Below are positions 1-46,573 of a stretch of 64,000 bases of DNA, piece after piece. Every line of letters begins with the position of its first letter. Position 1 is the stretch's first letter. Source of the stretch: a phage; the sequence record PZ379177.1; one strand, 5' to 3'. The translations under genes and the position numbers were made by a program. The notes under the pieces are model-generated. The model made no database searches. It was given only the letters and a program-made list of their open reading frames with translations, and was not told the origin of the DNA.

Positions 1-1578
1 CGGCGGCGGCGGTACGCCGTCCAATCGGCTAACGTTCCATGAGCGTCTGATGCCGTCAGTCTCTGCAATCAATGTTGCGTTTCCTGGGTACGGGTAGCCG
101 CCGATTGAACCAGAGTACGCAAGTGATGACCCAGGCTGCATGAATGACTCGCCCACCATGCCATTTCTTGTCGTCAACGGACCGTTTGCGCAAGAAATGT
201 TGTTGAGCGTTCCCGCCGTTACAGACAGTATTGCTGTTCCGTCAGAAGGAGGGTTTTGCGTTCCATAAAAATAAGGCTCAGGTCCATTTGGATTCTGAAC
301 AGGGTCGCAGACGCAAATCGAGTATCCAAAAAGAAGTGCATCAGACCCTTCAGGCAATTCACGAGTTTGAGTTGATCCAGCGGCAGTCGCCTTCAACTCT
401 ATTGAAAAGCTGGTACTTACTCCAGAAGCAGCGGTTGCCGTCTGCTCTACAATCCAGATTCGATACCAATCGCCGCCAATTGCTTTTATGCCACCACGGT
501 TTGATTCCCTTCTTACTCCATCGAATTTGCCTTTGATGAAATAGCTCAATGACGGGTCCAAGTTGAACTGGCCAGTGACGGGGTCAAACAGCTTTCCATT
601 ACTCGATGCATCACTATTCTCTGTAACAGAAACAGAAGCGACGTTTTCAGAAAGCACCTTTATGTAGAAGCTATAGCAAACGTTGACGCCAGCCTGCGAA
701 GGAAGCGAAATTGATTTGGCACTTGGATTATTGGCCAAAGAATACACAGGCTCACCGCTTGAAGCCGTCTTGATGACCCTTACTGCGTTGGCAAAATTCT
801 CTATGGCCTCGCCTGGGTAATCACCACACAACTGCCCATAGTAATCAGGCCCACCATACTGTCTGGTGTCGCCGCCGACAAGCCCTGTGCCGGAACCATT
901 TCCCCATGAGTACCAATCTGGGTGCGCCATCCGTGACACGGTGCCTGACACTCCGCTGATGGCCAGTCCGGCGTTGTTGCCATGGCTTAAAAGTATCTGC
1001 TTATAATCATGCTGAATCTCAGTTGACCCTTGCCAGTCGTACAGAAGGAATGAGCCATTGGTTGATTCAGACGAAGACACCGCGCCTTGAGTATTGTCGG
1101 TCACATATGCGTAGCGTGATGAAGAGTAATCCCAAGCCTCTCCACGGTTGAAAATCCACTTAAGCATGCGGTTGATACTTTCGATGCGGCCATCACTTGT
1201 AAGCGTCAGATAACGAAGCTTAAGAAGTATGCGCGCTTCTTCGATATTCTTTACAACCTTCCCGCCAGCACCAAAGAAGTTGCCGCCGATGTTGTCCGCA
1301 CCTTCAAAGTTGTCGCGCGTCGGTCCAAACGCCCAGTTGTGCTCATAATTGCTTAAGTCCACAAAGTCTCTTGGTATGCAAAGAATGTCGCACCAAATAT
1401 AAATGCCCATTGCATCACAAGTGTCAATGTTAAAAATGTTATTGTACCAGTCAGTCCAAAACTGATCTTGGTATCTTTCATACCAGTCACTTTTCTTTTG
1501 CACCAAAGATGCGATGTTTGGCGCATTGTTCTGCATCCACTTAAGGTTTTGCAACAGGTTTGTGTCAAACTTTTGCAT
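1..1578 (-). CDS. Tail fibre / host-specificity-like structural protein, partial (ATG at 1578-1576; 3' end runs off the window start)
   Basis: Hand translation of the minus frame from 1578 to 1 gives 526 codons with no stop (MQKFDTNLLQNLKWMQNNAPNIASLV...). GAGGAA RBS-like sequence just upstream, directly after the stop of the 423-aa gene. Gly/Ser/Thr-rich and last in the tail gene string. Not in the ORF track because it is truncated. Confidence 0.55.
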   Translation of the reverse strand, partial: MQKFDTNLLQNLKWMQNNAPNIASLVQKKSDWYERYQDQFWTDWYNNIFNIDTCDAMGIYIWCDILCIPRDFVDLSNYEHNWAFGPTRDNFEGADNIGGNFFGAGGKVVKNIEEARILLKLRYLTLTSDGRIESINRMLKWIFNRGEAWDYSSSRYAYVTDNTQGAVSSSESTNGSFLLYDWQGSTEIQHDYKQILLSHGNNAGLAISGVSGTVSRMAHPDWYSWGNGSGTGLVGGDTRQYGGPDYYGQLCGDYPGEAIENFANAVRVIKTASSGEPVYSLANNPSAKSISLPSQAGVNVCYSFYIKVLSENVASVSVTENSDASSNGKLFDPVTGQFNLDPSLSYFIKGKFDGVRRESNRGGIKAIGGDWYRIWIVEQTATAASGVSTSFSIELKATAAGSTQTRELPEGSDALLFGYSICVCDPVQNPNGPEPYFYGTQNPPSDGTAILSVTAGTLNNISCANGPLTTRNGMVGESFMQPGSSLAYSGSIGGYPYPGNATLIAETDGIRRSWNVSRLDGVPPPP

Positions 1579-1584
1579 AGTTCC

Positions 1585-2856
1585 TCACACAAATTTAACG
1601 TTGATGAAGCCGCGCATAGTATTAGCCTTATCCCAAGGATTGGCAATCCACTCGCTGCCGTAATCGGATGGATAATTTGGCGCTGCCTGTCCGCTTTTAA
1701 CTGCTGCAATTTTGCAATCTTTAATGTACAGACCTGGATACTCGCAAGATACTGCTGAAGCAATCTCAAAAGAAGATTGAGATTGGCCTACTGCATATCC
1801 TTGCTCGCCGTTAAAATTTCCATTACCGTAATTCAACACAGCGGCAATAATAGATTCGGCATCGGCGGTTGCGGTGCCTCTTACAACAGTAATATCGACA
1901 TACAAGTCATATATGACAGCAGTGTTGAACTTTACGAAATAAGACAGTTGTGATTCTTCGTCGACAACTTCTATTCCATCAGGAGAGTTGACTGGATTGC
2001 CCTGGTTGGCAGCACCAAAGTCCCACGGCTGGCCGCCCATTTTCGCTTTGAAAATAGTCTCAGCAAAAACTTGCTTATCGAAAGTTCCGCTTGCGCACAC
2101 CCAAACACCGTTAGGCGTTGAAAAGGTGATGCCGCGTACCGTTCCAGGCAATCCCGTGTCGTTCTCCACGACCATCACAGATTCCACGCCGTCGACCGAC
2201 ATGGCGCGAGCGCGAATGGCACCAAGCGATGCAATGCCCTGCTGGTAAAGACGCTTAACGCGAGCGGCCTTTAATGCTCCGTCGCCCATGTATTGCGCTC
2301 CTGGCACAGTCGTCGTTGCTGATGTTGAATACGTTCTTGACCATCCGATGACGTCATAACCTTGCACCACTGTAAACTCTTCATCAGGTGCAACAGTAAA
2401 TGAGCCATACTCTTTTGATGCAAGAGTCATATTGCTTGTCTTGCCAGTCGAAGTGATTTGAACGTCTTCCAAAACATACCAGTATGTGCCATTTGAATCC
2501 GTCAGCAAACTTCCAGCAGGAATCTCCAACAGCGGCGTTCCTTCTGCGGTAATTCCTTTTAGCATCGTGCTGATGTTTTTAGTTCGCTCAATCCCAAGCA
2601 ATGCCGCGATGGCATCAAGGTATACGCCATACGAATAATTTGGGTTGATGAGACTTCCCAGCTCGGCGTTGTTCTTCATCACTGAAGTTCTTGCCAAAGT
2701 CTCCGTTGCGATTAGGGTGCCTTGCGGTGTCGAGGCATCAACGTCAAGCCCGACCCCTAATGACTCAATCCATTCACTTTGAACGTCAGCCAGCAAATCG
2801 GCTGTGTCGATGGTTATTACACCAGTGCTTACTATGTAAGAATATTGTGCACTCAT
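1585..2856 (-). CDS. Tail/baseplate structural protein (possibly baseplate J-like)
   Basis: 423-aa ORF between the spike-like gene and the fibre-like gene; its start overlaps the upstream stop. Function inferred from position only. Confidence 0.5.
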   Translation of the reverse strand: MSAQYSYIVSTGVITIDTADLLADVQSEWIESLGVGLDVDASTPQGTLIATETLARTSVMKNNAELGSLINPNYSYGVYLDAIAALLGIERTKNISTMLKGITAEGTPLLEIPAGSLLTDSNGTYWYVLEDVQITSTGKTSNMTLASKEYGSFTVAPDEEFTVVQGYDVIGWSRTYSTSATTTVPGAQYMGDGALKAARVKRLYQQGIASLGAIRARAMSVDGVESVMVVENDTGLPGTVRGITFSTPNGVWVCASGTFDKQVFAETIFKAKMGGQPWDFGAANQGNPVNSPDGIEVVDEESQLSYFVKFNTAVIYDLYVDITVVRGTATADAESIIAAVLNYGNGNFNGEQGYAVGQSQSSFEIASAVSCEYPGLYIKDCKIAAVKSGQAAPNYPSDYGSEWIANPWDKANTMRGFINVKFV

Positions 2857-3605
2857 TCTATCATATCCCCAGTTCTGTTTCCAGGTCCGTTACCTATGTG
2901 ACCGTGAGTGGATACATTTGTGCCGCCGATTGTTGTGCCAGTCGGAAGCGTTGCCGTCGTTCCTTCTTTCCCTTCTATACCACCATTGAACGTTGCCTTT
3001 CCATTAACTATCAATTGTTGGTCGATAGTGGTTATTGGTGTTTTCACATTTACTCCAGCCGATGCAGTTATGTTTATCGAGTCATCACTTAATGCGATGC
3101 GGACAGCTCCGCTGAGTGACTGGATTACCATTGAGCCTGCATCCTCTCCGCTTATGGTGTATTTTCGAAATACATCCGGTATGAACAGTCCATCAGCGAA
3201 AGTTTTCGCGCGACCATTGGTAGGCGCGGTCGGCTTCAATTCTTCAAGGAATGTCGACAACTCGCGGTCGCCAGCGAATATCCAGCCCAAATCACCTTCT
3301 TTCAAAGGAAAGTTGATTACAAAGCCGCCGCCGCCGATTGCTAATACAGGAATTGACACCAGGGGTTGACGCTCCACTGGTTTATCATCAAGACTTACGA
3401 AATGAATAACAGGCTTTATGACTGCTAAATTCTGTTTGCGGTCATAAGATATTACTTGTGCAGGAATCATGCCGTCAGTGGTATACTTGCCACGGTCCAG
3501 CATTCCCTGCAGCGCGGCAAACATACTTGATTTGTCAGTTTGGTTGGGGCTTGTAAGTTGGGTTAACTTTTCTGCCATCATAGACTCCTTATATCTGATC
3601 AACAA
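2853..3605 (-). CDS. Baseplate central spike-like protein (gpV-like)
   Basis: 250 aa. Gly-rich beta region (AIGGGGFVINFPLKEGDLGW) and a C-terminal His-rich tip (GGTNVSTHGHIGNGPG), as in metal-binding spike apex domains. Position downstream of the tape measure gene. Confidence 0.55.
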   Translation of the reverse strand: MLIRYKESMMAEKLTQLTSPNQTDKSSMFAALQGMLDRGKYTTDGMIPAQVISYDRKQNLAVIKPVIHFVSLDDKPVERQPLVSIPVLAIGGGGFVINFPLKEGDLGWIFAGDRELSTFLEELKPTAPTNGRAKTFADGLFIPDVFRKYTISGEDAGSMVIQSLSGAVRIALSDDSINITASAGVNVKTPITTIDQQLIVNGKATFNGGIEGKEGTTATLPTGTTIGGTNVSTHGHIGNGPGNRTGDMIE

Positions 3606-3638
3606 ATTATAATCTATAAGGAGTCTATAAGCAATATT

Positions 3639-4160
3639 TTAGCGATTTGACTTTGATTCTTTAATGGCAGCTTCGTTTGAGTAGGCTTCATTAAGTGATT
3701 TTGCTATTAAACCATCAAACATGGCAAATGCATCACGCAATGAATAGTATTCTTCCAACTCCTTTAAAGAGGCAAGGCCGTTATTTATTAGACTTGCAAC
3801 CATTGGCTCAAGATAATTAGGCTCTACTGTCGGTGCATCCGCCAAGAATCTATTTGGAATCTTGGTGCCTTTCCAATCGCTAAGGAATCCAAAGTTGTGC
3901 TTTTTAACGGCTTCCATTAATACTTTCAACACAAGATTAGGCGGCAAGTGATTAGGTATGCTTTTCACTTCCTCACTAATTACTTTTTCAGAATTAAGCC
4001 TTACTTTGGACCCGTCATATTTGATGACATAACATTCACTCAATAATTCAAGTGGAGTTAATATGCTTATGTCGTCCACCATTTCGAATGCATCTATTGC
4101 GCTGAATTGATGAATTTCATAAGTAACGCCAAACAAGTCAATTACTTTATTCTTTCTCAT
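3639..4160 (-). CDS. Hypothetical tail-associated protein
   Basis: 173-aa ORF inside the co-oriented tail gene string. Confidence 0.5.
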   Translation of the reverse strand: MRKNKVIDLFGVTYEIHQFSAIDAFEMVDDISILTPLELLSECYVIKYDGSKVRLNSEKVISEEVKSIPNHLPPNLVLKVLMEAVKKHNFGFLSDWKGTKIPNRFLADAPTVEPNYLEPMVASLINNGLASLKELEEYYSLRDAFAMFDGLIAKSLNEAYSNEAAIKESKSNR

Positions 4161-15905: not shown

Positions 15906-16523
15906 TTAACGAGTCAATTGTACAATGGTATAAGTGGAAGACTGGACGCTTGGGCCGGAAAGGGCAATAGCAGTCGGGTCAATCACAATACCGCCTGGGA
16001 TGGCAACCATGCCAGTTGGCAGTGAGCCAGTATAGGCGATAATTGCACCGATAGGCAAGTTGTTCGGGTTGTTGCCGCTGGAAATGCCTTTAGGTACATA
16101 AGCGAGCAGGTCGCCGTAGTTCAGCGTCTGCGGGCTGGTGCTTGGGTTGAATACTTCAACTACGAGGCCCGTGCACATATCATAGAACTCGCCTTCGCTA
16201 TATTGAGGCAGAACCATGCTGGCACCCAAAGGACCAGTAGAGTTGCCATACAGCGCGTAACGCTTGCTATTGCCGAGGATGCCGTAGTAGTTGGTGCCGC
16301 CCAGCTCAACTTCAAAGTCCTGCGCGCCCAAAGTTTTGGTTTGACCAGTACCCATTAAGGATACGTCAGTCTTAAAACCGAACACACGGCTGATGGCGTT
16401 TACGTTTGCGCCTTCGTTGGCGTTGGCAATTCGGCCTGGCTTCCCACGCTGTGGGCCGTCGCGAACGATGTCGCCAGGAAAGCCAGTTGTATATTGACGG
16501 CCTACACTAGTTTGGAAAGTCAT
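15906..16523 (-). CDS. Putative capsid decoration/structural protein
   Basis: Track ORF 15906-16544 trimmed to the internal ATG (MTFQTSVG...) so that it abuts the upstream stop at 16526. Gly/Thr-rich. Confidence 0.45.
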   Translation of the reverse strand: MTFQTSVGRQYTTGFPGDIVRDGPQRGKPGRIANANEGANVNAISRVFGFKTDVSLMGTGQTKTLGAQDFEVELGGTNYYGILGNSKRYALYGNSTGPLGASMVLPQYSEGEFYDMCTGLVVEVFNPSTSPQTLNYGDLLAYVPKGISSGNNPNNLPIGAIIAYTGSLPTGMVAIPGGIVIDPTAIALSGPSVQSSTYTIVQLTR

Positions 16524-16525
16524 AT

Positions 16526-17944
16526 TTATTCCCCTTTCAACCAAGCTTCAAATGCTTCGTCAGTTGCTGCAGAATCCGCAGCGGCCTTTTGTTTTGCGAC
16601 TACACGCTGTTTTTGACCGTGTTCAACGCCGCGCAGATAGTTATCCACAACGTCAAACTCAGCACCATCAACGCACTTCAAGCCTAACTTTTTAGCGCCA
16701 TATTTCGCTACGGACTTGGAGTCCATAGTTGCATGATCAAAGGCACCAACAACTTTAGACAGGCGCTGGTAGAGGCTATTCTTACGAGCAGAATCAGCGT
16801 AGAAAGCAGCAACTGCTGAATCAGATGCCATTGAGTGTTCCCCTTTTGCTGGACCTGGCGACGCTTTCGCCGCTTTTGTCGGTTTGTCATCTTTTTCGAC
16901 CGAAGCCCCCTTTACGTTGCTGTTTTGCAGGCCGCTAACCACATCTTCAGCTTTGTCGCAAGGTGATACATCTTCAGCCTTGACTTCAACTTCTTCGTCT
17001 TTGACTTCGGCTTCAACTTCTTCTTCATCACCTACCGCGCCACCTTTCAGTTTTGCAATAAGTGCTTCGATTTGGCTGATCAGTTGCGGAAGCTCGCCAC
17101 CAGCGTGAGATTCAGTTTCAACTTCAAACTTCTCTTCACCTTCTGGAGTCTCTTCAGCTTCTGCTTTGACTTCTGGATCAACCATCACTTCTTCACGTTC
17201 TTCGGTTGAATCCTTCTCTTCTGCTTTCACTTCAACTTCGTCCTGATGAGCAGCTTCGGTGCTCTCTTCATTCAGAAATTGTTCGAGCGCAGGGATCAGT
17301 GATTTCAGCTGTTCAACAGCATTATCACGCGCTTTACCTTTTAACGGTTTTGGCATGTCTAAATCCTCGTTGGATGGTGTTACAGTCGTCAAACAAAGAT
17401 GGTCAAAGCAACGACCATCCAGCACCCGTGCACCTGGTACTCGACCAACGTCCACGAGAGCAATGTGGTTGCCGCGAAGAGTTGTCTGTACCACTTCATA
17501 CGGCTGCCCGTCAAACTCTCCAGACTGTATGATGAATTCACAGTCATAGCCCAAAGACAAGTCAACCTTTCCAGAATCGATGGCTTTCTTCAGACGACGG
17601 CTAAAAACTTTAAGATCGCCGCGCATCCATGGCTTGTCATAATAAACATTGCCAGTTAGAACGCCATCAACGCCATACTCTTCGGGTGCTGTGTTATCCT
17701 CATCACCTTCGAATCCAGAAAGCATTTCGTGATTGTCTATGAAAGGGATATTTTTGAATGAATCTATCGCTTCGGGGTCTTTCACCGCTGACTCTGGGCG
17801 ATAAACTTTTACGATGCGATTCGGATCACCATCAAGTCCAACCTGACCTGCAGAATAATCAAAAATGCCAAATGACGAAATGGGACAACCCACAATCGTC
17901 AAGAATCCATTTTTGTCAATTTCGCGTGCCGTTTGCATTCGCAT
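16526..17944 (-). CDS. Putative prohead protease/scaffolding protein with acidic linker
   Basis: 472 aa. Globular N-terminal region, then a long acidic low-complexity stretch (EEVEVKAEEKDSTEEREEVMVDPEVKAEAEE...) typical of scaffold proteins. First gene after the repeat-rich intergenic region. Start could be the ATG two codons in (17938). Confidence 0.5.
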   Translation of the reverse strand: MRMQTAREIDKNGFLTIVGCPISSFGIFDYSAGQVGLDGDPNRIVKVYRPESAVKDPEAIDSFKNIPFIDNHEMLSGFEGDEDNTAPEEYGVDGVLTGNVYYDKPWMRGDLKVFSRRLKKAIDSGKVDLSLGYDCEFIIQSGEFDGQPYEVVQTTLRGNHIALVDVGRVPGARVLDGRCFDHLCLTTVTPSNEDLDMPKPLKGKARDNAVEQLKSLIPALEQFLNEESTEAAHQDEVEVKAEEKDSTEEREEVMVDPEVKAEAEETPEGEEKFEVETESHAGGELPQLISQIEALIAKLKGGAVGDEEEVEAEVKDEEVEVKAEDVSPCDKAEDVVSGLQNSNVKGASVEKDDKPTKAAKASPGPAKGEHSMASDSAVAAFYADSARKNSLYQRLSKVVGAFDHATMDSKSVAKYGAKKLGLKCVDGAEFDVVDNYLRGVEHGQKQRVVAKQKAAADSAATDEAFEAWLKGE

Positions 17945-18039
17945 CCACCCTCAAATAAGTATTGTGTATTATATCTAATGAAAAAAACTTAGGCAAACAA
18001 TAATTATGGTTTGAATATGTATAACAACCGATATAGCCG

Positions 18040-18340
18040 CGCCTTAATTAGTGTGATACGGATGATACGGATAAAATGAGGCGTATTTTTATCCGTATCG
18101 GTGTATAAGCCGCGCTATCACTGGTGTGCTACGGATGATACGGATGATACGGATACTTTTCATATATAAGAGTTTATAAAAAAAATAAAATTAAATTAGA
18201 TATATAATTTTAAATTAATTTATTTGAATTCCTATAAAGTATCGCGGCAACGCGTATCATCCGTATCATCCGTAAGATTCTTTTGAAAACAACTACTTAC
18301 TTGATACGGATGATACGTCATTATACGCGTAAAATCCTGC
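18040..18340. repeat. TACGGAT-family repeat module, copy 1
   Basis: About 9 copies, e.g. GTGATACGGATGATACGGATAAAA, a 13-bp-arm palindrome GATACGGATAAAA...TTTTATCCGTATC, GCTACGGATGATACGGATGATACGGATAC and CGTATCATCCGTATCATCCGTAAGATTC, flanking an AT-rich core (AAAAAAAATAAAATTAAATTAGATATATAATTTTAAATTAATTTATTT). Confidence 0.75.
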
Positions 18341-18361
18341 GGCAATCCATTGCCAGGCGAT

Positions 18362-18498
18362 TCAGTGAATATTAAAAAGCACTCCAGCAACTAAAACGCC
18401 AATCAGCATCGAGTCGTAAACAGCCCATTTCCAAGAAAGCAAAGAGTTGCAATTAATATTTCGCACTTTAACGTAACGTGACTGAATAATCTTTTGCA
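18362..18498 (-). CDS. Small hydrophobic peptide (44 aa)
   Basis: ATG preceded by AAGAGGAAG RBS; product MQKIIQSRYVKVRNINCNSLLSWKWAVYDSMLIGVLVAGVLFNIH. Below the 60-aa track cutoff. Confidence 0.3.
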
Positions 18499-18509
18499 TA
18501 ACTTCCTCT

Positions 18510-19430
18510 TTAGTTCAACTTAATTGCGGTGATCTGTCCGTAAACGGTAGATGTCAATGCGTCTGTGCATTGATAGTTTAGATACACGTTGCCAGGCGCG
18601 GCAAGAGTAATTATCTTTGTTGGGATATTGCCGCCGAAACGACCTGCAGCCCGAATGCCAGCTGACATTGTAAATGCATCATCCGTAATATCTGAATTAC
18701 TTGTTGACAGCTTGACTGTAATTCCGGTATTCGCTTGAACTCCTGCTGTCGCGACAGTCAACTGACTTGCTGTCACAAGCCATTTCCCTGCAGGCAGGTT
18801 TAAGGTTGCCAGATTCACCAGAGTTGTCGGAGGATTGCTTACGCTGTTGCTTGCGTTCTGCACAGTGCTTGCAGCAGCATTAAGGACGCCAGAACCATCA
18901 ATTGATAGTGTCGTTCCTACCTTTATGCCACCCAAGGTTGATGCTGATGCAATCGGTAATGAGTATTGAGTCACACTAATTGTACCGTCACCTGCAACGC
19001 TTATGCCACTTCCTATTTTGACGCCGCCAAGAACAGAAGCCGTTGCCGCTGGTAGTGTGTATTGGTTGCTGCTGGATTTGACTACCTTAACGGCGACAGC
19101 ATTCTTGGACCCTCCAGACTCCATGCCTATAATCACTGCTTCTCCAAAAGCGATGGCGATCGTAGATGCAGTTAAACCAGTCTGCACGTCTGTTATGTTC
19201 ATTTTGGGAACTGAAAGTGTCAGATTCGGCTTGCTGGTAGAATCGCCATCATTACCGATCATAAAGAACTGGCCAACTGAATTGTATCCAGACGCCAATG
19301 GCGGACTCAATGGAACAATCAGGTTTTTATCGGATGTGAATTCCGAAACAATCGCCAAACCGTTAGCATATACAGCAGGCAATACTGGCGTTTGTCCAGA
19401 TAGAGGAAACGTGCTGATTGGTATCGTCAT
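18510..19430 (-). CDS. Structural protein with tandem beta-repeats (fibre-like)
   Basis: Track ORF 18510-19499 trimmed to the internal ATG (MTIPISTFPL...), which removes the overlap with the upstream gene ending at 19438. Internal repeat TLPAATASVLGGVKIGSGISVAGDGTISV / SLPIASASTLGGIKVGTTLSIDGSGVLN. Confidence 0.5.
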   Translation of the reverse strand: MTIPISTFPLSGQTPVLPAVYANGLAIVSEFTSDKNLIVPLSPPLASGYNSVGQFFMIGNDGDSTSKPNLTLSVPKMNITDVQTGLTASTIAIAFGEAVIIGMESGGSKNAVAVKVVKSSSNQYTLPAATASVLGGVKIGSGISVAGDGTISVTQYSLPIASASTLGGIKVGTTLSIDGSGVLNAAASTVQNASNSVSNPPTTLVNLATLNLPAGKWLVTASQLTVATAGVQANTGITVKLSTSNSDITDDAFTMSAGIRAAGRFGGNIPTKIITLAAPGNVYLNYQCTDALTSTVYGQITAIKLN

Positions 19431-19437
19431 AATGACC

Positions 19438-20289
19438 TCAAATGATTGGTATTTTTCTGCACTTGCAGTGTATCGCCCATCCAGGAGGACCGATGTCACC
19501 CTTTTTGAACTTCAACTCTCCGCCCACTTCCCATAGACGCTTGTCATCAAGTTTGAATCTCATTCCGTCGACATGTTCATGAGAGATTCGCGGCTCCTTT
19601 CCTGCTCCTGAGTGCGCCCATTCAAATTCTTCAACTCCATTCTGGCGCATCCTTTCATCGCTTAGAACGCAATACAATTTGCTTGTCTGGTCTTTAGCGA
19701 TTAAGTCGACTCTCTTTGCAGAGAAGTGTTTTACGTTTCGCAGCGCCGCCTGAATGCCTGACGTGCCTTGCTGGGCTGGGTCGGGCGAAGTCAGCGAAAG
19801 CATGACTGCTTCGTACACTCTGTTGTGAATATCCTCGCCGACCTTAGTCACTAGAGTCGTGTTAAACGTCTCGCTTGTTCTAAGAGTGTTCTCAACGAAT
19901 TTGTTATATGTGGCCTTTGGCGCTTCTATGCCTGCGGACTTAAGGCTGGCGAATGTAGCAGAAGTAGCACCCTTTTCAACCGACTTGATAAAATCAGCGG
20001 CAATCTTCGACCCAACACGAGCAAACGCCTTTGCCCATTTCAGCTGCAGACGTTTCATAAGAGTTTGGAATGTTGAATCAGCAGAGTCTTGCGCAAAGAA
20101 CTTCTGCACCTGCTTCTTTTCAAGCCACTCTGAAATTCCTGCCTGATAGTCATCAATCATCGCATAGCAAAGACCTTTCATCTCACGACGGTAGGCCATC
20201 GCAATAGCGTTTGATGGGATTATCGGACTGCCGCGCCCGATTCTATCGGGTGAGCGGCGTTCACGTTTTTTCGAAGCTTTAAAAGCCAT
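19438..20289 (-). CDS. Head morphogenesis protein (Mu gpF-like / SPP1 gp7-like)
   Basis: C-terminal signature ...EWAHSGAGKEPRISHEHVDGMRF...GPPGWAIHCKCRKI (PxxHxxCxC). Directly downstream of the portal gene. Start set at ATG 20289 (MAFKASKKRER...). Confidence 0.75.
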   Translation of the reverse strand: MAFKASKKRERRSPDRIGRGSPIIPSNAIAMAYRREMKGLCYAMIDDYQAGISEWLEKKQVQKFFAQDSADSTFQTLMKRLQLKWAKAFARVGSKIAADFIKSVEKGATSATFASLKSAGIEAPKATYNKFVENTLRTSETFNTTLVTKVGEDIHNRVYEAVMLSLTSPDPAQQGTSGIQAALRNVKHFSAKRVDLIAKDQTSKLYCVLSDERMRQNGVEEFEWAHSGAGKEPRISHEHVDGMRFKLDDKRLWEVGGELKFKKGDIGPPGWAIHCKCRKIPII

Positions 20290-20290
20290 A

Positions 20291-22666
20291 TCAACCTTGC
20301 TTCGGTGAATTAGTAGGATTATTGAGTGCTCCGTATGCTTGAGAGCAATCACCCTTCAACCACTCCTTGAATGAGTTCACATCTAATTCGTGGATTGAGT
20401 CGAATCCGTTCCAACCGTTACCAAATGATGCTTGATAAGCTTCTTTCGCTTCTTCTGCTGAATCGAATCCAAGCATACACTTGTGTTCATCAAACTCGCC
20501 AGAGTAGTTATCGTTTTGGTTCACGATAAAGACTTTCGGCGACTTCAGATTTGGACCCACAAAGCAGTCGACTTCATCACCGTCTGCGCCCTTGGTGCCC
20601 TTGATGAATCCGTAGTGGTGCGGCATCTTCACGGCCCATTCACCGTCAAGGCTGTTTCCTCTACGAATGCTGTTTCGCGGATTCTCAATGCCAAGAATCA
20701 TTCCGTGCAACTTCATCTTAGGTAATGATGCTGCGTCCATTTTACCCACGTTGTGGCGTAAGTTGACGACGTGTCCTTTAACGCTTGGAAGGGTAGACGG
20801 TTGCACCGACCGTGAATCTTTTTGAGGGTCAAAATCCACATCCTGACCTTCTTTCAGGTAGTAATCCGCAATACCCTCCAGCCCTTCTTTCAACTGCGTT
20901 AGGACATCAACCTGATGGCTTGATTCATCACCGGTATCGTCCATGTTGATTTCGACAGGCGCTTTGTCAGGGTTTTCCGCCAACTCACCACGCGCAGCAC
21001 CCTCTGGCATAATACCTGTTTCGCTATAGAACTGGCCGCCCATCTTAACGACATCAGCTTTCGCCTGTTCAATATCGGCCTTACCTTGCAGGACTTCACC
21101 AGCAGACTTGCCAAGCAATGCCATATTCTCTGGAGACATCCCTGGGGTTTCTTCTGCTGCGTCTTCCGGCAGACGGTTGTAGCCGCTGTTTTTGTCGTCT
21201 TTGATGCGGTCGCGCTCTTCATCAGGAGAAATGACGCCAGCATCAATAAGAGTTTTGCCAGTGTTGGCTCGCTTATCATTGATTTCTGCAAGTTGAGTAG
21301 CAGTAAGTGAGCCAACTGGTTCCCATGCAACCTTAACATCGACATCCACCCCTTCTGATTTGAGAAGGATTTTGTAATGGCGGTCGAGAATTTTTGTCAG
21401 GTCATGCTGCTGGCACGTTTCCAACTCTTCGTGATAGCTGACCATCTCGAATTCACCAGTGGCGTTAAAGCCTTTTGGCGAAGTCCCAAGCAGTTTGGTC
21501 GACGGAACTTTTGCGATTGCGGCCACAAGCTGGTACTGGTTCATGATGATGCTGTCGAAGTCTGACAAGTTGATGTCAAACTGGTCCATCTCTTCTTTTT
21601 GGCCAAGCACTTTGACTGCATAGTTGTCGCGGTACTTGATCCACATCATCAGACGTTCTGCAAAAGACCGCTCATTGGCAATAGCCTTGTCAACGTCGGT
21701 CCGCAGCGTCGTTGTACGCTTGGACATCGCCAGCAATGGCGCTTCGTTGGCGGTACGTTCAGCGGCATAGATGCGTTCATAAATCTGCTGAGTCAGAGGG
21801 ATGCCGCCGTAAATATAAGTCGGCTTGAGAATATCAGCTGGCTCATCGTTGCGCAAGATTATGAGGTGGCTGCGATGATAACGTTGTCCGCTGATTACCC
21901 AATATTCTGGGTCATAGAAGTGCTGTGATGCAGGGTCTGCCGTGTTTTCAGACGTCAGAAACGGCATCATCCAATAAGGGTCAACCTGAATGATTCCCTT
22001 ATAAGACCCCTTTGTCACACCATCAATGTTAAAAGGCTTGCTGTAATATTCTGGGTCATCGCTACGCACATCAAATATGATGACGCGGATACCAAAAATA
22101 TTTTTGAATCGTTCGGCTTCAACTAAGTGCTCTTTGATATTAAATTCTTTATCAATTTGCTTTAGGCGTTCGCTTGCCTGTACTGACAATTCTGACTCAG
22201 AACTGGATTTGACTTCCCAACCTTTACGGACCGCATCGCGGCCTACCATGGAACACGCCTTGTTCACCAGCCAATGCTGTGCGATGATGGCACAAGCTTG
22301 ATAGCCGATGAATGACTGTGACAGATACCAGTTTTGAAGTTGAATAGGTACTGTGTATGGGTTGACTTGCCCTTCTGAACTGATGTTCTTTAAGGCATTA
22401 TCCATAACCTTTTTGGATACTGTTGCGGAATCGACTGAACGACCTTTTATGATTGCAACACCATCGCCATTAATATCAGGCTCATATAAAGGGAAGTCAT
22501 CAACCGTTTTAAAGGTCGGTCGATTGCTTTCAGTCTTTTCCCAGCGTTGACCGCTGCCGCGCCTTTCAAGGCGTTCAAACGGTGCCAATGGGTCGCCTGG
22601 CGGCATCTCCGCTGGTTCGGCTTCTGGTTGCGTCTTCTCCCAGAGTTTTATGCCAAGAATTTTCAT
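20291..22666 (-). CDS. Portal protein with C-terminal inorganic-pyrophosphatase-like domain
   Basis: Large ORF between terminase and the Mu-F-like gene. Track start is TTG at 22699; ATG at 22666 (MKILGIKLW...) with AGGTGG RBS preferred. C-terminal ~150 aa carries MPHHYGFIKGTKGADGDEVDCFVG, which resembles the pyrophosphatase core [24 protein letters not shown]. Confidence 0.65.
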   Translation of the reverse strand: MKILGIKLWEKTQPEAEPAEMPPGDPLAPFERLERRGSGQRWEKTESNRPTFKTVDDFPLYEPDINGDGVAIIKGRSVDSATVSKKVMDNALKNISSEGQVNPYTVPIQLQNWYLSQSFIGYQACAIIAQHWLVNKACSMVGRDAVRKGWEVKSSSESELSVQASERLKQIDKEFNIKEHLVEAERFKNIFGIRVIIFDVRSDDPEYYSKPFNIDGVTKGSYKGIIQVDPYWMMPFLTSENTADPASQHFYDPEYWVISGQRYHRSHLIILRNDEPADILKPTYIYGGIPLTQQIYERIYAAERTANEAPLLAMSKRTTTLRTDVDKAIANERSFAERLMMWIKYRDNYAVKVLGQKEEMDQFDINLSDFDSIIMNQYQLVAAIAKVPSTKLLGTSPKGFNATGEFEMVSYHEELETCQQHDLTKILDRHYKILLKSEGVDVDVKVAWEPVGSLTATQLAEINDKRANTGKTLIDAGVISPDEERDRIKDDKNSGYNRLPEDAAEETPGMSPENMALLGKSAGEVLQGKADIEQAKADVVKMGGQFYSETGIMPEGAARGELAENPDKAPVEINMDDTGDESSHQVDVLTQLKEGLEGIADYYLKEGQDVDFDPQKDSRSVQPSTLPSVKGHVVNLRHNVGKMDAASLPKMKLHGMILGIENPRNSIRRGNSLDGEWAVKMPHHYGFIKGTKGADGDEVDCFVGPNLKSPKVFIVNQNDNYSGEFDEHKCMLGFDSAEEAKEAYQASFGNGWNGFDSIHELDVNSFKEWLKGDCSQAYGALNNPTNSPKQG

Positions 22667-31040: not shown

Positions 31041-31099
31041 AATAATCTCCTAGTTGGGTCGGGAGGGTAGCGACCTATTCGCTACCTCATCCCCTCTCG

Positions 31100-31137
31100 A
31101 TATAAAACATTATAGTCTTAGTGTACGAAGAAGTAAA
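31100..31137 (-). promoter_or_regulatory. Sigma70-like promoter, cassette B
   Basis: In gene sense: TTTACT - 17 nt - TATAAT, followed by TTTTATATCGAGAGGGG, a stem-loop (GTAGCGAATAGGTCGCTAC) and the conserved RBS. Confidence 0.55.
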
Positions 31138-31148
31138 GCACTTTTTCA

Positions 31149-31451: not shown

Positions 31452-31497
31452 AATAAAGCTCCCGATGCTAGTAGAAGAAAGGGCCATCGCCCGTCTC

Positions 31498-33125: not shown

Positions 33126-33614
33126 CTAGTGGCGGGAGAATTGCTCACCTTCTTTGGCCGCCTCTCCAAAATCCTTGTAGAAATCGTCCATGGAACGGCC
33201 CATTTTACTATTGCCGTTTTCATCAATCATCGTGATGCCGTAGATGATATTCAGTTCACGAATAGCATTAAGTTTGGCTGACGCCGCGACTTCTGGATCA
33301 CGCACAAGCTTGACCAAATTGTGAATTGCACCTTTTACGCTCCACAAATCCTTGAGTGGCATCTCTTCCATACGCTTTTTGAAGCGCATCTTGTAGTATG
33401 GATTGCGTTGCGCGCAAAGGATTCGCTGGCCAGTGTAGTTATCCGTTGCAACTTCCATTCCAAATACTAGTGCAAAAGCTGCGCGCATGTCATGGCCCTG
33501 AATAACAAGGTCAATGAACTCATCGAATAAAGCCTGATTGTGCTCTGCAAATCGCGGGTCTTCAAAGTCTTCAGGCATCGCTACATAATCTTGACTCATA
33601 GTGCAAAATCCCAT
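33126..33614 (-). CDS. Hypothetical protein, possible helix-turn-helix DNA-binding protein
   Basis: 162-aa ORF whose start codon lies within an iteron copy (reverse complement TTTGCACTATG). A small-terminase-like role is speculative. Confidence 0.45.
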   Translation of the reverse strand: MGFCTMSQDYVAMPEDFEDPRFAEHNQALFDEFIDLVIQGHDMRAAFALVFGMEVATDNYTGQRILCAQRNPYYKMRFKKRMEEMPLKDLWSVKGAIHNLVKLVRDPEVAASAKLNAIRELNIIYGITMIDENGNSKMGRSMDDFYKDFGEAAKEGEQFSRH

Positions 33615-33699: not shown

Positions 33700-34110
33700 C
33701 AAATCATAGTGCTGAATGGATAACGGACCGTGGTGCGTGGTGTACTGTTTGATACGGATAAAAGAAATCCATCCCTTTCGCCGCTTGTTATGCAAATCAA
33801 TGACTTAGCCGCTGCTGGCTGGTTTAAGCGTATCATGACGTATCATCCGTATTGCCGCAAGTCTTTGTTTTTACTTATATCTTACGGATAATACGTTAAA
33901 TATATAAATTAACATAAGTATGAGGATGTAGAAAAAAAATTAATTTAAATTAATTCAAAATGGAGTTAATTAATTTTTGAAATAATTCTGGTTACAATAA
34001 GGAAAAATGGCGTATCATCCGTATCATCCGTAAGATTCAGTGTACAAATCCAGGCGCGGCGCACCCTAGCGCCATGATACGGATAAAAACCTATCCGTAA
34101 GAGTGTACGC
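33700..34110. repeat. TACGGAT-family repeat module, copy 2
   Basis: About 8 direct and inverted copies of GATACGGAT/ATCCGTATC flanking an AT-rich core (GAAAAAAAATTAATTTAAATTAATTC...). Shares the exact 29-mer CGTATCATCCGTATCATCCGTAAGATTC with the module at 18.2 kb. Confidence 0.75.
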
Positions 34111-41863: not shown

Positions 41864-42511
41864 TTATCCTGTGGCCTGCATATTGCGTACATACTTCTGC
41901 TCTAATGAATAGATGAAGTCGGCGACCGTCAATCCTTTGGTGTGCCACTCATACATTGTGTAGCCTGTATTCAGGAAATAGCCGCGCACTTTATCCATCG
42001 CTTCAGCTTCCTCCATGGAAGCCATCAGCGCGGCGACGTTATCATAAGAAGGCACAAATCCCTTCTTGCGTAGCGCATTGCGCAAATCTTTAGTTCTGAA
42101 TCCAATCTTGCACGGGTCATCACGGCCCGTTGATGATGCAACCTTCGGCAAAGCAAGGAACTCTTTGAGGAACATCGAGATGTTCAGGTCGCCTGCATCA
42201 TCAAGCTTCTGGAGTCGGTTGCGACCGCGCCCCTTGAATTCACTCGCACGGGGGTGAGCGCCAAAACAGTGCGCACCTTCCAATTTAGGGTCGATGATCA
42301 TCAAATCTTTTCCTACGCGCAATTCAACGTAGTAAAGGTATGTCTCATCGACAAGCTTCGTGCGTTTACAGGTGATGGAGTCCTTATCGTAACCAAAACC
42401 ACGCAACACGGTTGAAATCATCCGGTTCATTTCTTCTCCGTGAACGTCACTCTCTTTGTTCAGTTCACCGAGATGTTGAAAGAATTTAGCGATGTTGATT
42501 GCTTTATTCAT
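41864..42511 (-). CDS. Hypothetical early protein
   Basis: 215-aa ORF abutting the helicase gene. Confidence 0.5.
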   Translation of the reverse strand: MNKAINIAKFFQHLGELNKESDVHGEEMNRMISTVLRGFGYDKDSITCKRTKLVDETYLYYVELRVGKDLMIIDPKLEGAHCFGAHPRASEFKGRGRNRLQKLDDAGDLNISMFLKEFLALPKVASSTGRDDPCKIGFRTKDLRNALRKKGFVPSYDNVAALMASMEEAEAMDKVRGYFLNTGYTMYEWHTKGLTVADFIYSLEQKYVRNMQATG

Positions 42512-44181
42512 CAGAATTCATCCTTATCTCTTCCTAAAGAACGTTTGCGCTCAATAACCTTCTTCAAGAATTCAATATCTTCAGGGTCAGACTCGTCGCG
42601 AATAAGATACGCTAAGATAGTCATCAAGTCAGAAATGTATTCCCCTGCTTCATTCTTAATCAGCGGCGTAAAGTATCCACGCTGGTTGCGATAGGTCGCA
42701 GGCTCAAATCCAAGCTTCGACATGTGCGGCGCAAGGGTACGTGAGAAAGGCGACTTGCCGCACTTAGCTCTGAATCCCATAGCGATTGCACCACTGGTGA
42801 TGTGCCAGCGTCCGCTGTGATGTCGGTCATAAGGCGCGGTAATGACGACTTCAACAAGGTCGTTGTCGACCATCTCATCACGGATAACGCCGCGAGCACG
42901 TTCCATTTCATTCTTGCTAAACTCAGTAAGCATGCGAGATGTTTCACCAACAAACGCGTTGTAACCTGCTTCGCCGTGCTTCTCCATCCATGCAGCGCAC
43001 TCAGCCATCAATTGCCAAACGTCTTCTTTCAAAGTGGAAAGATCAGCTTGGAAGTCTTTCGACCAGTTCGGCTGCCCGTCCTTGTCAGCAAGTTGGCCAA
43101 CAAAGATAGGATATACACGACGGTTGCCCGTGTCATCACGCTGCATACCTGCGTATTCGTTGCCGTCCATGATAGCAATCCACTGGCGTGGTTTAACCTG
43201 CGTATCTTCAAATTTGAAGTCCAGGTCATCTTCCGTCTTAGTCAGGAATGCTTTCATGTTTTCGATGTCAGCCTTTTTAAAGCCTGTCATCTCGCCAACG
43301 TTCGCGATAATTGAGCGACCCGTAATAGCTCGCAAGAACGGGTTGAAGTTCTGCGCGGCCAAGTTCAACGGAATCGGTGTTGCGTGGCGGTCGTTCATAA
43401 TAGCTTCGCAAAGTAGCTTACTAAAATAACTCTTCCCTGCGTTCTGGCCGCCGATGAGCGCGATGGAGATTGGCGCTTGACATCCAGGGTTTGTCAGGCG
43501 GTTGTAGAGCGATAGCCAAAAATACACACCGATTTGTCGGTTTAACTCTGTATCGAACGGTCGGAATAGCTCGATAAGGTATTTTTCAATGCGCGCAGTA
43601 CCGTCCCATTCAGGAAGCTTCTTGTAGAAGAAGTCCATCAGGTCGTCGCGCTGATAACGCATGGCCCATTCCTTATAGGATTGAGCGACCTGACGTGAGT
43701 TTGGGTTGGACAGTCCTGCTGCGTCGACAGCGGCAACTATCTCTGTGACTTCCAAAGTACGGTCGGTGAATGTTTCGCCGCGATGGTCGACTAAGCGCCC
43801 ACGAAAAGTATCTTTGTGAGGGAATGGAACAACGCCACTTCCCTTATCAAACAACGCGTCGAAAACCGCATAACGGTTCATGTCACTCGTCCGGTCTGCC
43901 TGTAGAACGAAGTCATCTTTGGTAGGCTTGTAGTGAGGGAACTTGATTACCTGAAGTGAGGCGAGCAAGCGTGCTCTTTCAACCAAGTCTTCTTCACCGT
44001 AGCATTCCATGCGCTCTGCATCTTTCTCAACAGCCTTATGCTGGAGGCTGATTTTAGCTCTGGTGCCTTGCTGCTCTGCCGCTTGCATCTCTTCTGAAAC
44101 ACCAGCGTCTTGAATTTCGTCAAAGATTGCACCAAATTCATCACCTGTATCCTCTGGAAGATTGTCATGTTCAATTGACAT
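42511..44181 (-). CDS. VirE/D5-like P-loop DNA helicase (primase-associated)
   Basis: 556 aa; Walker A IALIGGQNAGKSYF; WDGTARIEKYLIELF region typical of phage VirE-family helicases. Confidence 0.7.
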   Translation of the reverse strand: MSIEHDNLPEDTGDEFGAIFDEIQDAGVSEEMQAAEQQGTRAKISLQHKAVEKDAERMECYGEEDLVERARLLASLQVIKFPHYKPTKDDFVLQADRTSDMNRYAVFDALFDKGSGVVPFPHKDTFRGRLVDHRGETFTDRTLEVTEIVAAVDAAGLSNPNSRQVAQSYKEWAMRYQRDDLMDFFYKKLPEWDGTARIEKYLIELFRPFDTELNRQIGVYFWLSLYNRLTNPGCQAPISIALIGGQNAGKSYFSKLLCEAIMNDRHATPIPLNLAAQNFNPFLRAITGRSIIANVGEMTGFKKADIENMKAFLTKTEDDLDFKFEDTQVKPRQWIAIMDGNEYAGMQRDDTGNRRVYPIFVGQLADKDGQPNWSKDFQADLSTLKEDVWQLMAECAAWMEKHGEAGYNAFVGETSRMLTEFSKNEMERARGVIRDEMVDNDLVEVVITAPYDRHHSGRWHITSGAIAMGFRAKCGKSPFSRTLAPHMSKLGFEPATYRNQRGYFTPLIKNEAGEYISDLMTILAYLIRDESDPEDIEFLKKVIERKRSLGRDKDEF

Positions 44182-45490: not shown

Positions 45491-46573
45491 CTATTTTATG
45501 CCACCTGCACGACGATTTATCATGTCAAGTTGATTCTCAATATAAGGCATGACGATTGCTTCAACAAAAGCAGTCCAACCTTTCTTGCCTTCCCCTTTCC
45601 GGTGACAGTCGTGAGCGCAACCGAAAACGAATTCATGTTCAGCGCCAGGGATTGGGCCGCGAAAATAAGCGCCGTATGGGTCGCCGTTGGTGTGTTCTTC
45701 ACCCCAAGGACAGATGATGCGGCATTTGCCTGACATGTTTTCAACAACATCGCCATCGGACCCTTCACCCATCTTATTGCGAGCAAGGATTTGCTGGGCT
45801 ATTTTATACCAAACAGCATCATATTTGTATTCGTCAACGTCAATTTGAATTTCACGCTTTTGCGGCATAACGACGTGGAAACCGAAGGCTTGGCAAATCT
45901 CTTCGATTGTGTAGCGCAAAGAATAGTCTGCATGAACAAGTCGGCAGCGGAACGGGTCGCCGTTCTCATCGACATATTTATAGGGGCCGTCGTGAGTCAC
46001 ACGCTTGTTGTTGATGCACCCAGGAACACGGCCCACGCGCGTTACGTCTTTAATCGTGTTGTCGCCGCCCTTCTTGAGTACCATGTTAACGAAAGACCCA
46101 AGGAACGCTTTGAACTGAATAAGATGGTCAATCGGTTCTTTAAAGAAGTACCAAAGCTGGTGGTTGTTCGGTGAAGTCTCGACGATGACAGTCGGCTTCA
46201 GTCGCTCGAAAAAGAATTCCAAATCTAAATCGCCTTTGGACCCTTTACCGTGACCGATGTCGTCGACCATCATCGCCATACCGTGACCAAAGGCCGACTC
46301 TGTACGCCAGTATCGCATCTCACCCGTCTTTGGGTTGGGAGACTTACGCATCGAACTGATGCAAGCATAGCCGTTTTGGTGCTGCATGAGCGGCTTGCCC
46401 AACTTCCAAGGCTTAGGCCAGAAGCTGCTGTTGATCTTCTTGCCGCGTTCGTCGGTCTGTACCGTTGCTTCAGGAGCAAACACCGTCATGACGCGCTCAT
46501 CTTCTGGAATGCCTCTTTGGAGTTCTGTTAAAAACTCTTCGATTATTTTTGCTTCTTCTCTTAAACTAGCCAT
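45491..46573 (-). CDS. PrimPol-like (archaeo-eukaryotic-type) primase with C-terminal Cys/His cluster
   Basis: 360 aa; acidic MVDDIGHG, then ETSPNNHQLWYFF (SxxxxH motif), and C-terminal CPWGEEH...CAHDCH. Confidence 0.65.
   Translation of the reverse strand: MASLREEAKIIEEFLTELQRGIPEDERVMTVFAPEATVQTDERGKKINSSFWPKPWKLGKPLMQHQNGYACISSMRKSPNPKTGEMRYWRTESAFGHGMAMMVDDIGHGKGSKGDLDLEFFFERLKPTVIVETSPNNHQLWYFFKEPIDHLIQFKAFLGSFVNMVLKKGGDNTIKDVTRVGRVPGCINNKRVTHDGPYKYVDENGDPFRCRLVHADYSLRYTIEEICQAFGFHVVMPQKREIQIDVDEYKYDAVWYKIAQQILARNKMGEGSDGDVVENMSGKCRIICPWGEEHTNGDPYGAYFRGPIPGAEHEFVFGCAHDCHRKGEGKKGWTAFVEAIVMPYIENQLDMINRRAGGIK

What the first reader, a model, noticed from the sequence alone, without database searches (positions are those of the whole stretch)
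18040..18340. TACGGAT-family iteron module with AT-rich core, copy 1
About 9 direct and inverted copies of GATACGGAT, including a 13-bp-arm palindrome GATACGGATAAAA...TTTTATCCGTATC, flank a roughly 60-bp AT-rich tract. The module shares the exact 29-mer CGTATCATCCGTATCATCCGTAAGATTC with a second module at about 34.0 kb. Iterons beside an AT-rich unwinding-like element are the classic layout of a replication origin; a regulator-bound promoter hub is an alternative.
Basis: partly seen in the sequence, partly recalled or inferred. Interest (0 to 1): 0.6.

Follow-up and report, generated by a model that had tools for sequence, protein, structure and literature searches.

The report
Probable phage replication origin module
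A cluster of short repeats around the most easily melted stretch of this E. coli phage genome is real, is one of two sister copies kept across several phage genera, and most likely is a replication origin bound by the phage's own initiator-helicase, though this has not been tested experimentally.

Summary
Window 18055-18317 holds nine TACGGAT cores (seven exact GATACGGAT) in direct and inverted 9-bp arrays. They flank a ~97-nt tract that is the least stable DNA in the 64 kb.

The window is a Wifcevirus (E. coli myovirus, 99.7% to WFH). The module fills the gap upstream of the prohead protease gene. A paralogous copy lies at 33.75-34.1 kb, upstream of the small terminase gene.

Pantoea phage PA1, Serratia phage Spe5P4 and Pseudomonas phage 14-1 each have both modules at the same syntenic sites, and each lineage has its own repeat unit. 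Four metagenomic relatives, checked only at the second site, show the same pattern.

The phage encodes a homologue of the SaPI Rep self-loading helicase. Its C-terminal domain is a predicted winged helix and diverges much faster than its core. SaPI origins have the same layout: short iterons in opposite orientation on both sides of an AT-rich centre.

Best reading (about 0.45): a Rep-bound iteron origin, one of two per genome. Rivals are a promoter or regulator hub and a packaging site. The packaging rival matters because the genome's terminal-repeat end maps inside the sister module's AT core. Nothing here is experimental. I rate it a new member of a known kind, of moderate interest.

The parts
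18055..18099 (.). Outer left iteron group. Two tandem GATACGGAT units (18055-18072, + orientation) and one inverted unit (18091-18099). Together they form the 13-bp-arm palindrome 18064-18076 / 18087-18099.
18128..18154 (+). Inner left iteron array. Three tandem 9-bp units (GCTACGGAT GATACGGAT GATACGGAT) pointing toward the AT core. It is the left arm of the perfect 22-nt inverted repeat.
18155..18251 (.). AT-rich core, a candidate DNA-unwinding element. It is the most AT-rich and least stable 60-100-nt stretch of the whole 64-kb window.
18252..18280 (-). Inner right iteron array. It has about 2.5 units in the opposite orientation, within the 29-mer shared exactly with 34010-34038, and forms the right arm of the 22-nt inverted repeat. 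Phage Bas101 lacks exactly one 9-bp unit here.
18302..18317 (+). Outer right iteron group (TGATACGGATGATACG, 1.5 units).
17968..17996 (-). Sigma-70-like promoter TTGCCT-17-TATAAT (10 of 12), just upstream of the prohead protease ATG at 17944. It is invariant in 10 relatives and recurs as TTGCTT / TTGCTC-17-TATAAT in PA1 and Spe5P4. It is adjacent to the module and may or may not be part of it.
33751..34099 (.). Sister module (copy 2). Iteron arms at 33879-33895 and 34020-36, with the 29-mer at 34010-34038, flank the AT core 33896-34009. Further units lie at 33751, 33830-33851, 34076 and 34093. The left end of the direct terminal repeat of five deposited Wifcevirus records maps to 33961, inside this core.
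42511..44181 (-). Candidate iteron-binding initiator. A 556-aa VapE-like SF3 helicase homologous to SaPI1 Rep (PDB 7PDS), with a predicted winged-helix C-terminal domain (residues ~430-556).
45491..46573 (-). RepB-type primase (360 aa), the likely partner of the helicase.
33126..33614 (-). Small terminase gene (162 aa) immediately downstream of the sister module. It is the alternative candidate binder.

Best explanation
Module 1 is one of two paralogous iteron-type replication origins, or at least initiator-binding sites built like origins, in a Wifcevirus genome.

Inferred mechanism:
1. The phage's 556-aa Rep-like SF3 helicase recognises the TACGGAT units through its C-terminal winged-helix domain.
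2. Hexamers assemble on the oppositely oriented arrays on either side of the ~97-nt AT core.
3. The core, the least stable DNA in the genome, melts.
4. Two helicases self-load, and the RepB-type primase and the phage polymerase start bidirectional synthesis.
5. The outer iteron groups add cooperative binding.

The two modules may fire independently. Alternatively they may pair, as P4 ori and crr do (from memory).

What is shown: the repeats, the AT core, the paralogy, the cross-genus conservation with lineage-specific repeat units, and the identity and fold class of the helicase.

What is inferred: that this helicase is the binder, that the core melts, and that replication starts here.
For: 1. 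Non-random repeat architecture: nine TACGGAT cores within 255 nt, and a perfect 22-nt inverted repeat bracketing the core.

2. The AT cores of modules 1 and 2 are the two least stable 100-nt windows in 64 kb, more than 4 sd from the mean.

3. The same layout (array | ~100-nt AT core | inverted array | further units) lies in the syntenic gap upstream of the prohead protease gene in three other genera, with different units:
- Pantoea phage PA1: TAACCGTTA
- Serratia phage Spe5P4: TTACTTTTCG
- Pseudomonas phage 14-1 / HTN4: GGTAATTTGG

4. Each of these genomes has a second copy with the same unit, upstream of the small terminase gene.

5. Four metagenomic relatives have further units at that second site: ACGTATCA, TATCCGCAAGA, CTATCCGCCATC and CAGATAG.

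6. The phage encodes a VapE-like helicase (Pfam E 1.6e-28) that matches SaPI1 Rep, PDB 7PDS, at E 4e-11.

7. The helicase's C-terminal domain is 16-56% identical between lineages against 50-85% for the core. The two halves of the small terminase diverge about equally, to within roughly 20 points per pair.

9. PMC9371898 describes SaPI origins as follows: Rep's C-terminal winged helix binds short iterons; there are 6-12 iterons just downstream of rep; an AT-rich region sits in the centre; and at least two iterons on each side point in opposite directions.

10. The sister module lies immediately 3' of the rep gene in 14-1 and Spe5P4, and one gene away in L050.
Against: - There are no experimental data on binding, melting or initiation.
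- Module 1 is not next to rep (24 kb away), and the sister module is 8.5 kb from it in this genome.
- Cumulative GC skew shows no inflection at 18 kb. Published GC-skew minima in Pbunavirus lie elsewhere (PMC12390725).
- Units are 8-11 bp rather than the 5-6 nt of SaPIs.
- The sister module contains the terminal-repeat end and abuts the small terminase gene, which fits a packaging role.
- Both modules sit upstream of, and co-oriented with, genes that have sigma-70-like promoters.
- Fast divergence of a terminal domain is common and does not prove co-evolution with the repeats.
- Foldseek found no significant match for the C-terminal domain.
- Conservation within the genus adds nothing: the module is 97.2% identical to Bas99, against 96.0% for third codon positions of the adjacent protease gene.
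Confidence: 0.45

Rival explanations
1. Regulator-bound promoter region. The repeats are operator or activator sites for a phage DNA-binding protein that controls the sigma-70-like promoters of the two downstream late operons (prohead protease-scaffold-capsid, and small terminase). The AT core acts as an UP element, a bendable spacer or an additional promoter.
For: - Both modules lie upstream of their gene in the same orientation in all genera examined.
- A 10-of-12 sigma-70 promoter lies at 17996-17968, and two more lie at 33680-33635.
- The JG024 paper predicted a sigma-70 promoter inside the AT core of the Pbunavirus homologue of module 1 (PMC3008698).
- Phage 14-1 has promoters that need phage factors (PMC10914365).
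Against: - No good sigma-70 match lies inside either AT core in this phage. The best are 9 of 12 and overlap the repeats.
- Only two of the many operon starts carry the module. The portal, large terminase and tail operons do not.
- The proximal promoters are near-consensus and should not need activation.
- Shared orientation across genera follows from synteny alone.
- Inverted arrays around a 100-nt gene-free AT tract are not a usual operator layout.
Confidence: 0.2
2. Packaging signal. The repeats are small-terminase (or accessory) binding sites that organise DNA around an AT-rich cutting zone, as in P1 pac or lambda cosB. Module 2 is the functional site. Module 1 is a second terminase-binding site, comparable to the gene 16 / gene 19 pac pair that T4 gp16 synapses (from memory), or an unused copy.
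For: - Records of five Wifcevirus phages (WFH, WFC, Ro157lw, SP13, Mansfield), from at least two laboratories, start at the identical base, window 33961, inside module 2's AT core.
- Mansfield annotates 1..3673 as a PhageTerm direct terminal repeat.
- The next gene is the small terminase (PDB 7UXE, E 6e-34) in every lineage examined.
Against: - No deposited record places a terminus at module 1.
- The other terminal-repeat boundary (~30258) has no such module.
- Pbunaviruses keep both modules, yet Banzai shows headful packaging with no defined ends (PMC12390725).
- E217 small terminase showed no appreciable DNA binding in vitro (PMC9611059).
- The small terminase shows no fast-diverging DNA-binding half.
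Confidence: 0.15
3. Non-functional remnant. Module 1 is a decaying duplicate of the terminal module with no role of its own.
For: The two modules are paralogous. Conservation within the genus is no higher than at synonymous sites of the neighbouring gene.
Against: Both copies persist at the same syntenic sites in lineages whose proteins are only 30-55% identical. In each genome the two copies carry the same lineage-specific unit, which requires continued selection or concerted change.
Confidence: 0.03

Closest known systems
SaPI / PICI replication origins with Rep self-loading SF3 helicases (Ubeda et al.; Qiao et al. 2022, PMC9371898)
   Same: - Short iterons in at least two copies on each side of a central AT-rich region, pointing in opposite directions.
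- The initiator is an SF3 helicase of the VapE-like family with a C-terminal winged-helix domain.
- A separate primase is present.
- In Pbunavirus and Myosmarvirus relatives one module lies just downstream of rep.
   Different: - Units are 8-11 bp in tandem arrays rather than 5-6 nt.
- There are two modules per genome.
- Module 1 is 24 kb from rep, inside the structural operon.
- The host element is a 68-kb virulent myovirus, not a satellite.
- Binding and melting are untested.
Phage P4 ori and crr bound by the alpha primase-helicase (recalled from memory, not checked here)
   Same: Octamer-sized iterons in both orientations at two separate loci in one genome. They are bound by the winged-helix C-terminal domain of an SF3 primase-helicase.
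   Different: - P4 alpha fuses primase and helicase, whereas here they are separate genes.
- P4 crr lacks its own AT-rich core, whereas both modules here are complete.
- The Pfam DUF5906 hit is below its cut-off (22 against 27.6 bits).
Bacillus phage SPP1 oriL and oriR bound by G38P (recalled from memory)
   Same: A virulent phage with two distant initiator-binding regions, each made of repeated boxes next to an AT-rich segment.
   Different: The initiator family is different (G38P is a replisome organiser that needs a separate helicase loader and helicase), and the repeat types differ.
P1 pac and lambda cosB terminase recognition sites (recalled from memory)
   Same: Short repeats on both sides of a cutting zone near the terminase gene. 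This resembles the sister module, which holds the genome end next to terS.
   Different: Module 1 holds no known end and is not next to a terminase gene. The related Pbunavirus small terminase did not bind DNA in vitro.

Membership tests
SaPI/PICI-type iteron origin (Rep self-loading helicase) | At least two short iterons on each side of a central AT-rich region, in opposite orientation | tested here: met
   Three units at 18128-18154 (+) and about 2.5 units at 18252-18280 (-) flank the 97-nt core as a perfect 22-nt inverted repeat. The units are 9 bp rather than 5-6 nt.
SaPI/PICI-type iteron origin (Rep self-loading helicase) | Origin located immediately downstream of the rep open reading frame | tested here: not met
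   Module 1 is 24 kb from rep (42511-44181), and module 2 is 8.5 kb downstream of it. The feature is met only for the sister module in 14-1 and Spe5P4, and nearly so in L050.
SaPI/PICI-type iteron origin (Rep self-loading helicase) | The element encodes an SF3 helicase-initiator with a C-terminal winged-helix domain | tested here: met
SaPI/PICI-type iteron origin (Rep self-loading helicase) | Rep binds its cognate iterons specifically, melts the AT region and supports replication | not testable with these tools
   There is only indirect support. Repeat units differ between lineages, and the C-terminal domain diverges two to three times faster than the helicase core.
Classical plasmid / lambda-type iteron origin | Iterons of about 17-22 bp, mostly as direct repeats, bound by a dedicated non-helicase initiator | tested here: not met
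   Units are 9 bp in tandem and inverted arrays. The ten replication-region and early proteins scanned against Pfam gave no RepA-, O- or DnaA-type initiator. DnaA boxes were not searched systematically.
Terminase recognition site (pac / cos) | A physical genome end, or the first packaging cut, maps within the site | tested here: not met
   For module 1, all five deposited records with defined ends start at window 33961, inside module 2, and none starts near 18.2 kb. The feature is met for the sister module.
Terminase recognition site (pac / cos) | The small terminase binds the repeats | not testable with these tools
   The literature reports no appreciable DNA binding in vitro for the homologous E217 small terminase (PMC9611059). 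The primary paper is not held.
Sigma-70 promoter with regulator sites | A promoter within or directly served by the repeat cluster | tested here: inconclusive
   A 10-of-12 promoter lies at 17996-17968, with its -35 about 60 bp from the nearest unit. Nothing better than 9 of 12 lies inside the AT core. No transcription-start data were available.

The most novel reading that the evidence does not exclude
In Wifceviruses the origin doubles as the packaging start. The left end of the 3.7-kb terminal repeat is cut inside the initiator-melted AT core of the sister module, next to the small terminase gene. This would couple replication initiation to end formation and terminal-repeat duplication. Module 1, in front of the capsid genes, would be the partner site that pairs with it. 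That would be a new way of making direct terminal repeats, and it would explain why headful Pbunaviruses and terminal-repeat Wifceviruses share the same two modules.
Probability: 0.12. Interest if true: 0.75.

Novelty: new member of a known kind. Interest (0 to 1): 0.5.

Why it matters
- Pbunaviruses are among the Pseudomonas phages most used for therapy.
- Wifceviruses are reported to replicate unusually fast (PMC11990801).
- I found no paper that defines a replication origin for either group. The one prediction I found places it elsewhere, from GC skew.
- A defined pair of origins with a named candidate initiator would give direct handles for phage engineering, for in vitro replication systems, and for asking how such fast replication is achieved.
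- The position of the terminal-repeat end inside the sister module raises a testable link between replication and packaging.

Tried and rejected
- **GCGGCAA / TTGCCGC as a second shared motif.** It recurs in the modules of all genera. It is also about five-fold over-represented across the whole genome (38 hits in the window, 36 in PA1), so it is not specific to the modules.
- **Conservation within the genus as evidence of constraint.** The intergenic region looked better conserved than the 4-kb flank. This is a mosaic effect. The head-fiber and MuF genes are divergent (88-90% to Bas99). The module (97.2%) is no better conserved than third codon positions of the adjacent protease gene (96.0%).
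- **GC skew.** There is no inflection at 18 kb. The turning points follow gene orientation.
- **A scan of IMG/VR for the 18-mer.** Only Wifcevirus contigs have clusters. The other ten loci are single chance matches.
- **The lone GATACGGAT at 26324.** It lies inside a small coding sequence.
- **Rfam.** No family matches anywhere in the window.
- **Xanthomonas phage XcP1.** The syntenic gap shows no obvious arrays.
- **Papers not available.** The E217 terminase paper (PMC10026623) and the supplementary start-site tables for phage 14-1 are not held.
- **Co-variation between repeat unit and binder.** Every lineage differs in the repeat unit and in both candidate proteins, so eight lineages cannot separate the helicase from the small terminase beyond the difference in domain divergence rates.

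Full report
**What the window is.** Window 16500-20500 is 99.7% identical to Wifcevirus WFH and Shigella phage CWP003, and 92-98% identical to about 25 other records of E. coli myoviruses of this genus. The window is the reverse complement of most deposited records. Genes at 1-24.9 kb are structural and on the minus strand. Replication genes lie at 42-63 kb.

**The observation.**
- GATACGGAT occurs 11 times against 0.30 expected. TACGGAT occurs 23 times against 5.06 expected. No shuffle reaches either count.
- Nine TACGGAT cores lie at 18057-18311 and eight at 33753-34279. The remaining six are scattered singletons, and the one exact 9-mer among them (26324) is inside a small coding sequence.
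- Anatomy of module 1:
  - two tandem units at 18055-18072;
  - an inverted unit at 18091-18099, which forms the 13-bp-arm palindrome;
  - three tandem units at 18128-18154;
  - an AT tract at about 18155-18251;
  - about 2.5 units in the opposite orientation at 18252-18280;
  - 1.5 units at 18302-18317.
- The inner arrays form a perfect 22-nt inverted repeat with 101 nt between the arms.
- The unit consensus is W-TACGGAT-R-A, with a 9-bp period.
- The 29-mer GCGTATCATCCGTATCATCCGTAAGATTC is exact at 18252-18280 and 34010-34038.
- The AT cores of the two modules are the first and second most AT-rich and least stable 60-100-nt windows of the 64 kb.

**Context of module 1.** It fills a 417-bp gap (17945-18361) inside the late operon. 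Upstream on the minus strand are the portal, MuF-like, head-fiber and a 45-aa gene. Downstream are the prohead protease (16526-17944), scaffold-like and major capsid genes. A near-consensus sigma-70 promoter, TTGCCT-17-TATAAT, lies at 17996-17968, just before the protease ATG.

**Context of module 2.**
- It lies between the end of the minus-strand early operon (34416) and a 162-aa gene at 33126-33614 (minus strand). That gene matches the small terminase of Pseudomonas phage E217 (PDB 7UXE, E 6e-34) and is annotated as small terminase in phage Mansfield.
- Position 1 of the linear WFH record maps to window 33961, inside module 2's AT core. Its last base maps to about 30258.
- WFH, WFC, Ro157lw, SP13 and Mansfield all start at the identical base.
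- Korf et al. report a 3.7-kb terminal repeat (PMC6563267). Mansfield annotates 1..3673 as a PhageTerm direct terminal repeat.
- The other repeat boundary has no TACGGAT cluster.

**Comparative evidence.** This is the strongest result.
- The syntenic gap upstream of the prohead protease gene has the same layout in three other genera:

| Phage (genus) | Repeat unit |
|---|---|
| Pantoea phage PA1 (Kylevirus) | TAACCGTTA |
| Serratia phage Spe5P4 (Myosmarvirus) | TTACTTTTCG |
| Pseudomonas phages HTN4 and 14-1 (Pbunavirus) | GGTAATTTGG-type |

- The layout in each is: tandem array, roughly 100-nt AT core, inverted array, further units, then a sigma-70-like promoter.
- Each genome has a second cluster of the same unit directly upstream of its small terminase homologue.
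- Four metagenomic relatives show further units at that second site. Their module 1 sites were not examined.

| Relative | Helicase identity to the window | Repeat unit |
|---|---|---|
| L049 | 75% | ACGTATCA |
| L050 | 56% | TATCCGCAAGA, nine copies |
| L051 | 52% | CTATCCGCCATC |
| L052 | 50% | CAGATAG |

- The units of L049, L050 and L051 are visibly related to TACGGAT / ATCCGTA, so the recognition sequence drifts gradually.
- Two copies that are kept at fixed sites and change in step within each genome are bound by a lineage-specific protein. A decaying duplication is excluded.
- Xanthomonas phage XcP1 shows no obvious arrays.

**Who binds.**
- ORF 42511-44181 (minus strand, 556 aa) carries a VapE-like domain (E 1.6e-28) and matches SaPI1 Rep1 (PDB 7PDS) at E 4e-11. 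ORF 45491-46573 is a RepB-type primase.
- PMC9371898 states that SaPI Reps are initiators as well as helicases. It says their C-terminal winged helix recognises 5-6-nt iterons, and that 6-12 iterons lie immediately downstream of rep. It also says an AT-rich region sits in the centre, with at least two iterons on each side pointing in opposite directions.
- That is the layout seen here. In 14-1 and Spe5P4 the sister module does lie immediately 3' of the rep homologue. In L050 one gene intervenes. In Wifcevirus and PA1 a run of small genes has been inserted.
- Across eight lineages the helicase core is 50-85% identical, while the last ~125 residues are only 16-56% identical. The two halves of the small terminase diverge about equally, to within roughly 20 points per pair.
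- The AlphaFold2 model of residues 420-556 (pLDDT 85.7) has winged-helix topology.

**Weighing the readings.**
- **Origin.** This reading accounts for the architecture, the unstable core, the lineage-specific units, a cognate initiator of the right family, and the rep-adjacent position in several relatives.
  - It does not by itself explain why the terminal-repeat end falls in the sister module's core.
  - It also does not explain why a second complete copy sits before the capsid genes. Two-locus initiator binding has precedents in P4 and SPP1 (from memory).
- **Packaging.** This reading fits the sister module. It is weakened in three ways:
  - Pbunaviruses keep both modules, yet Banzai packages by the headful mechanism without defined ends (PMC12390725).
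  - E217 small terminase did not bind DNA in vitro (PMC9611059).
  - Module 1 holds no known end.
- **Promoter hub.** This reading fits the position upstream of two late genes and an earlier promoter prediction in JG024 (PMC3008698).
  - The cores lack good promoter matches here.
  - Other late operons lack the module.
- **Probabilities.** I put the origin reading at about 0.45, the promoter hub at 0.2, a packaging role at 0.15, and a non-functional remnant at 0.03. The remainder is unassigned.

**Cautions.**
- GC skew gives no support.
- Conservation within the genus is uninformative.
- Among ten relatives, none of the few substitutions in the module falls in a 7-nt core. One of them turns GCTACGGAT into the consensus unit, and Bas101 has lost exactly one 9-bp unit. 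These counts are too small to be significant.
- Everything about binding, melting and initiation is inference.

**Novelty.**
- Iteron origins served by SF3 helicase-initiators are known.
- I found no paper that identifies these modules as origins in Wifcevirus or Pbunavirus.
- The JG024 paper noted AT-rich boxes and motifs of unclear function. The Banzai paper places putative origins elsewhere by GC skew.
- I therefore rate this a new member of a known kind. It has two unusual features: two complete copies per genome, and the genome end inside one of them.

Noticed in passing
window 30258-33961: This 3.7-kb stretch corresponds to the direct terminal repeat of deposited Wifcevirus records. The small terminase gene (33126-33614, minus strand) lies inside the repeat, about 8 kb from the large terminase gene (23485-24945). 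It would therefore be present twice in virion DNA.
   Followed up: partly
window 34040-34420: The non-coding stretch next to the genome end carries its own repeats: AATCCAGGCGCGGCGC twice (34048, 34122), CCAAAATCC-type and ACCACG-type repeats, and a terminator-like hairpin at 34363-34347. Their function is unknown.
   Followed up: no
window 30100-30700: Near the other terminal-repeat boundary, AGTGTACTGCAAAT occurs twice (30124, 30220). A 400-bp non-coding tract holds repeated AATGATTCGAAAGC and CGAAGGG motifs. GTGTAC also recurs beside module 2 (34040, 34103).
   Followed up: no
window 18321-20352: There is a sharp mosaic boundary. Against phage Bas99 the head-fiber and MuF-like genes are 88-90% identical (third positions of the head-fiber gene 70%). 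The protease, capsid and portal genes on either side are 98-99.7% identical. The divergent block begins at about 18321, right at the edge of module 1.
   Followed up: partly
whole window; also PA1 genome (L028 + L029): The heptamer GCGGCAA / TTGCCGC is about five-fold over-represented genome-wide (38 hits in 64 kb, 36 in PA1, against about 8 expected), in coding and non-coding DNA alike. The cause is unknown.
   Followed up: partly
L021 (phage Bas101), aligned to window 18253-18261: Bas101 lacks exactly one 9-bp repeat unit in the right inner array. Copy number therefore varies by whole units within the genus.
   Followed up: no
window 18362-18499 (minus strand): A 45-aa ORF, annotated as transmembrane in vB_Eco4M-7, ends just upstream of module 1. 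A gene of similar size occupies the same position in Pbunavirus (14-1 gp21) and Spe5P4.
   Followed up: no
window 34416-42511 (minus strand): About 25 small genes of unknown function separate the rep-like helicase from module 2 in Wifcevirus. In Pbunavirus and Myosmarvirus the helicase gene directly abuts the module. This looks like an insertion hot-spot for accessory early genes.
   Followed up: no
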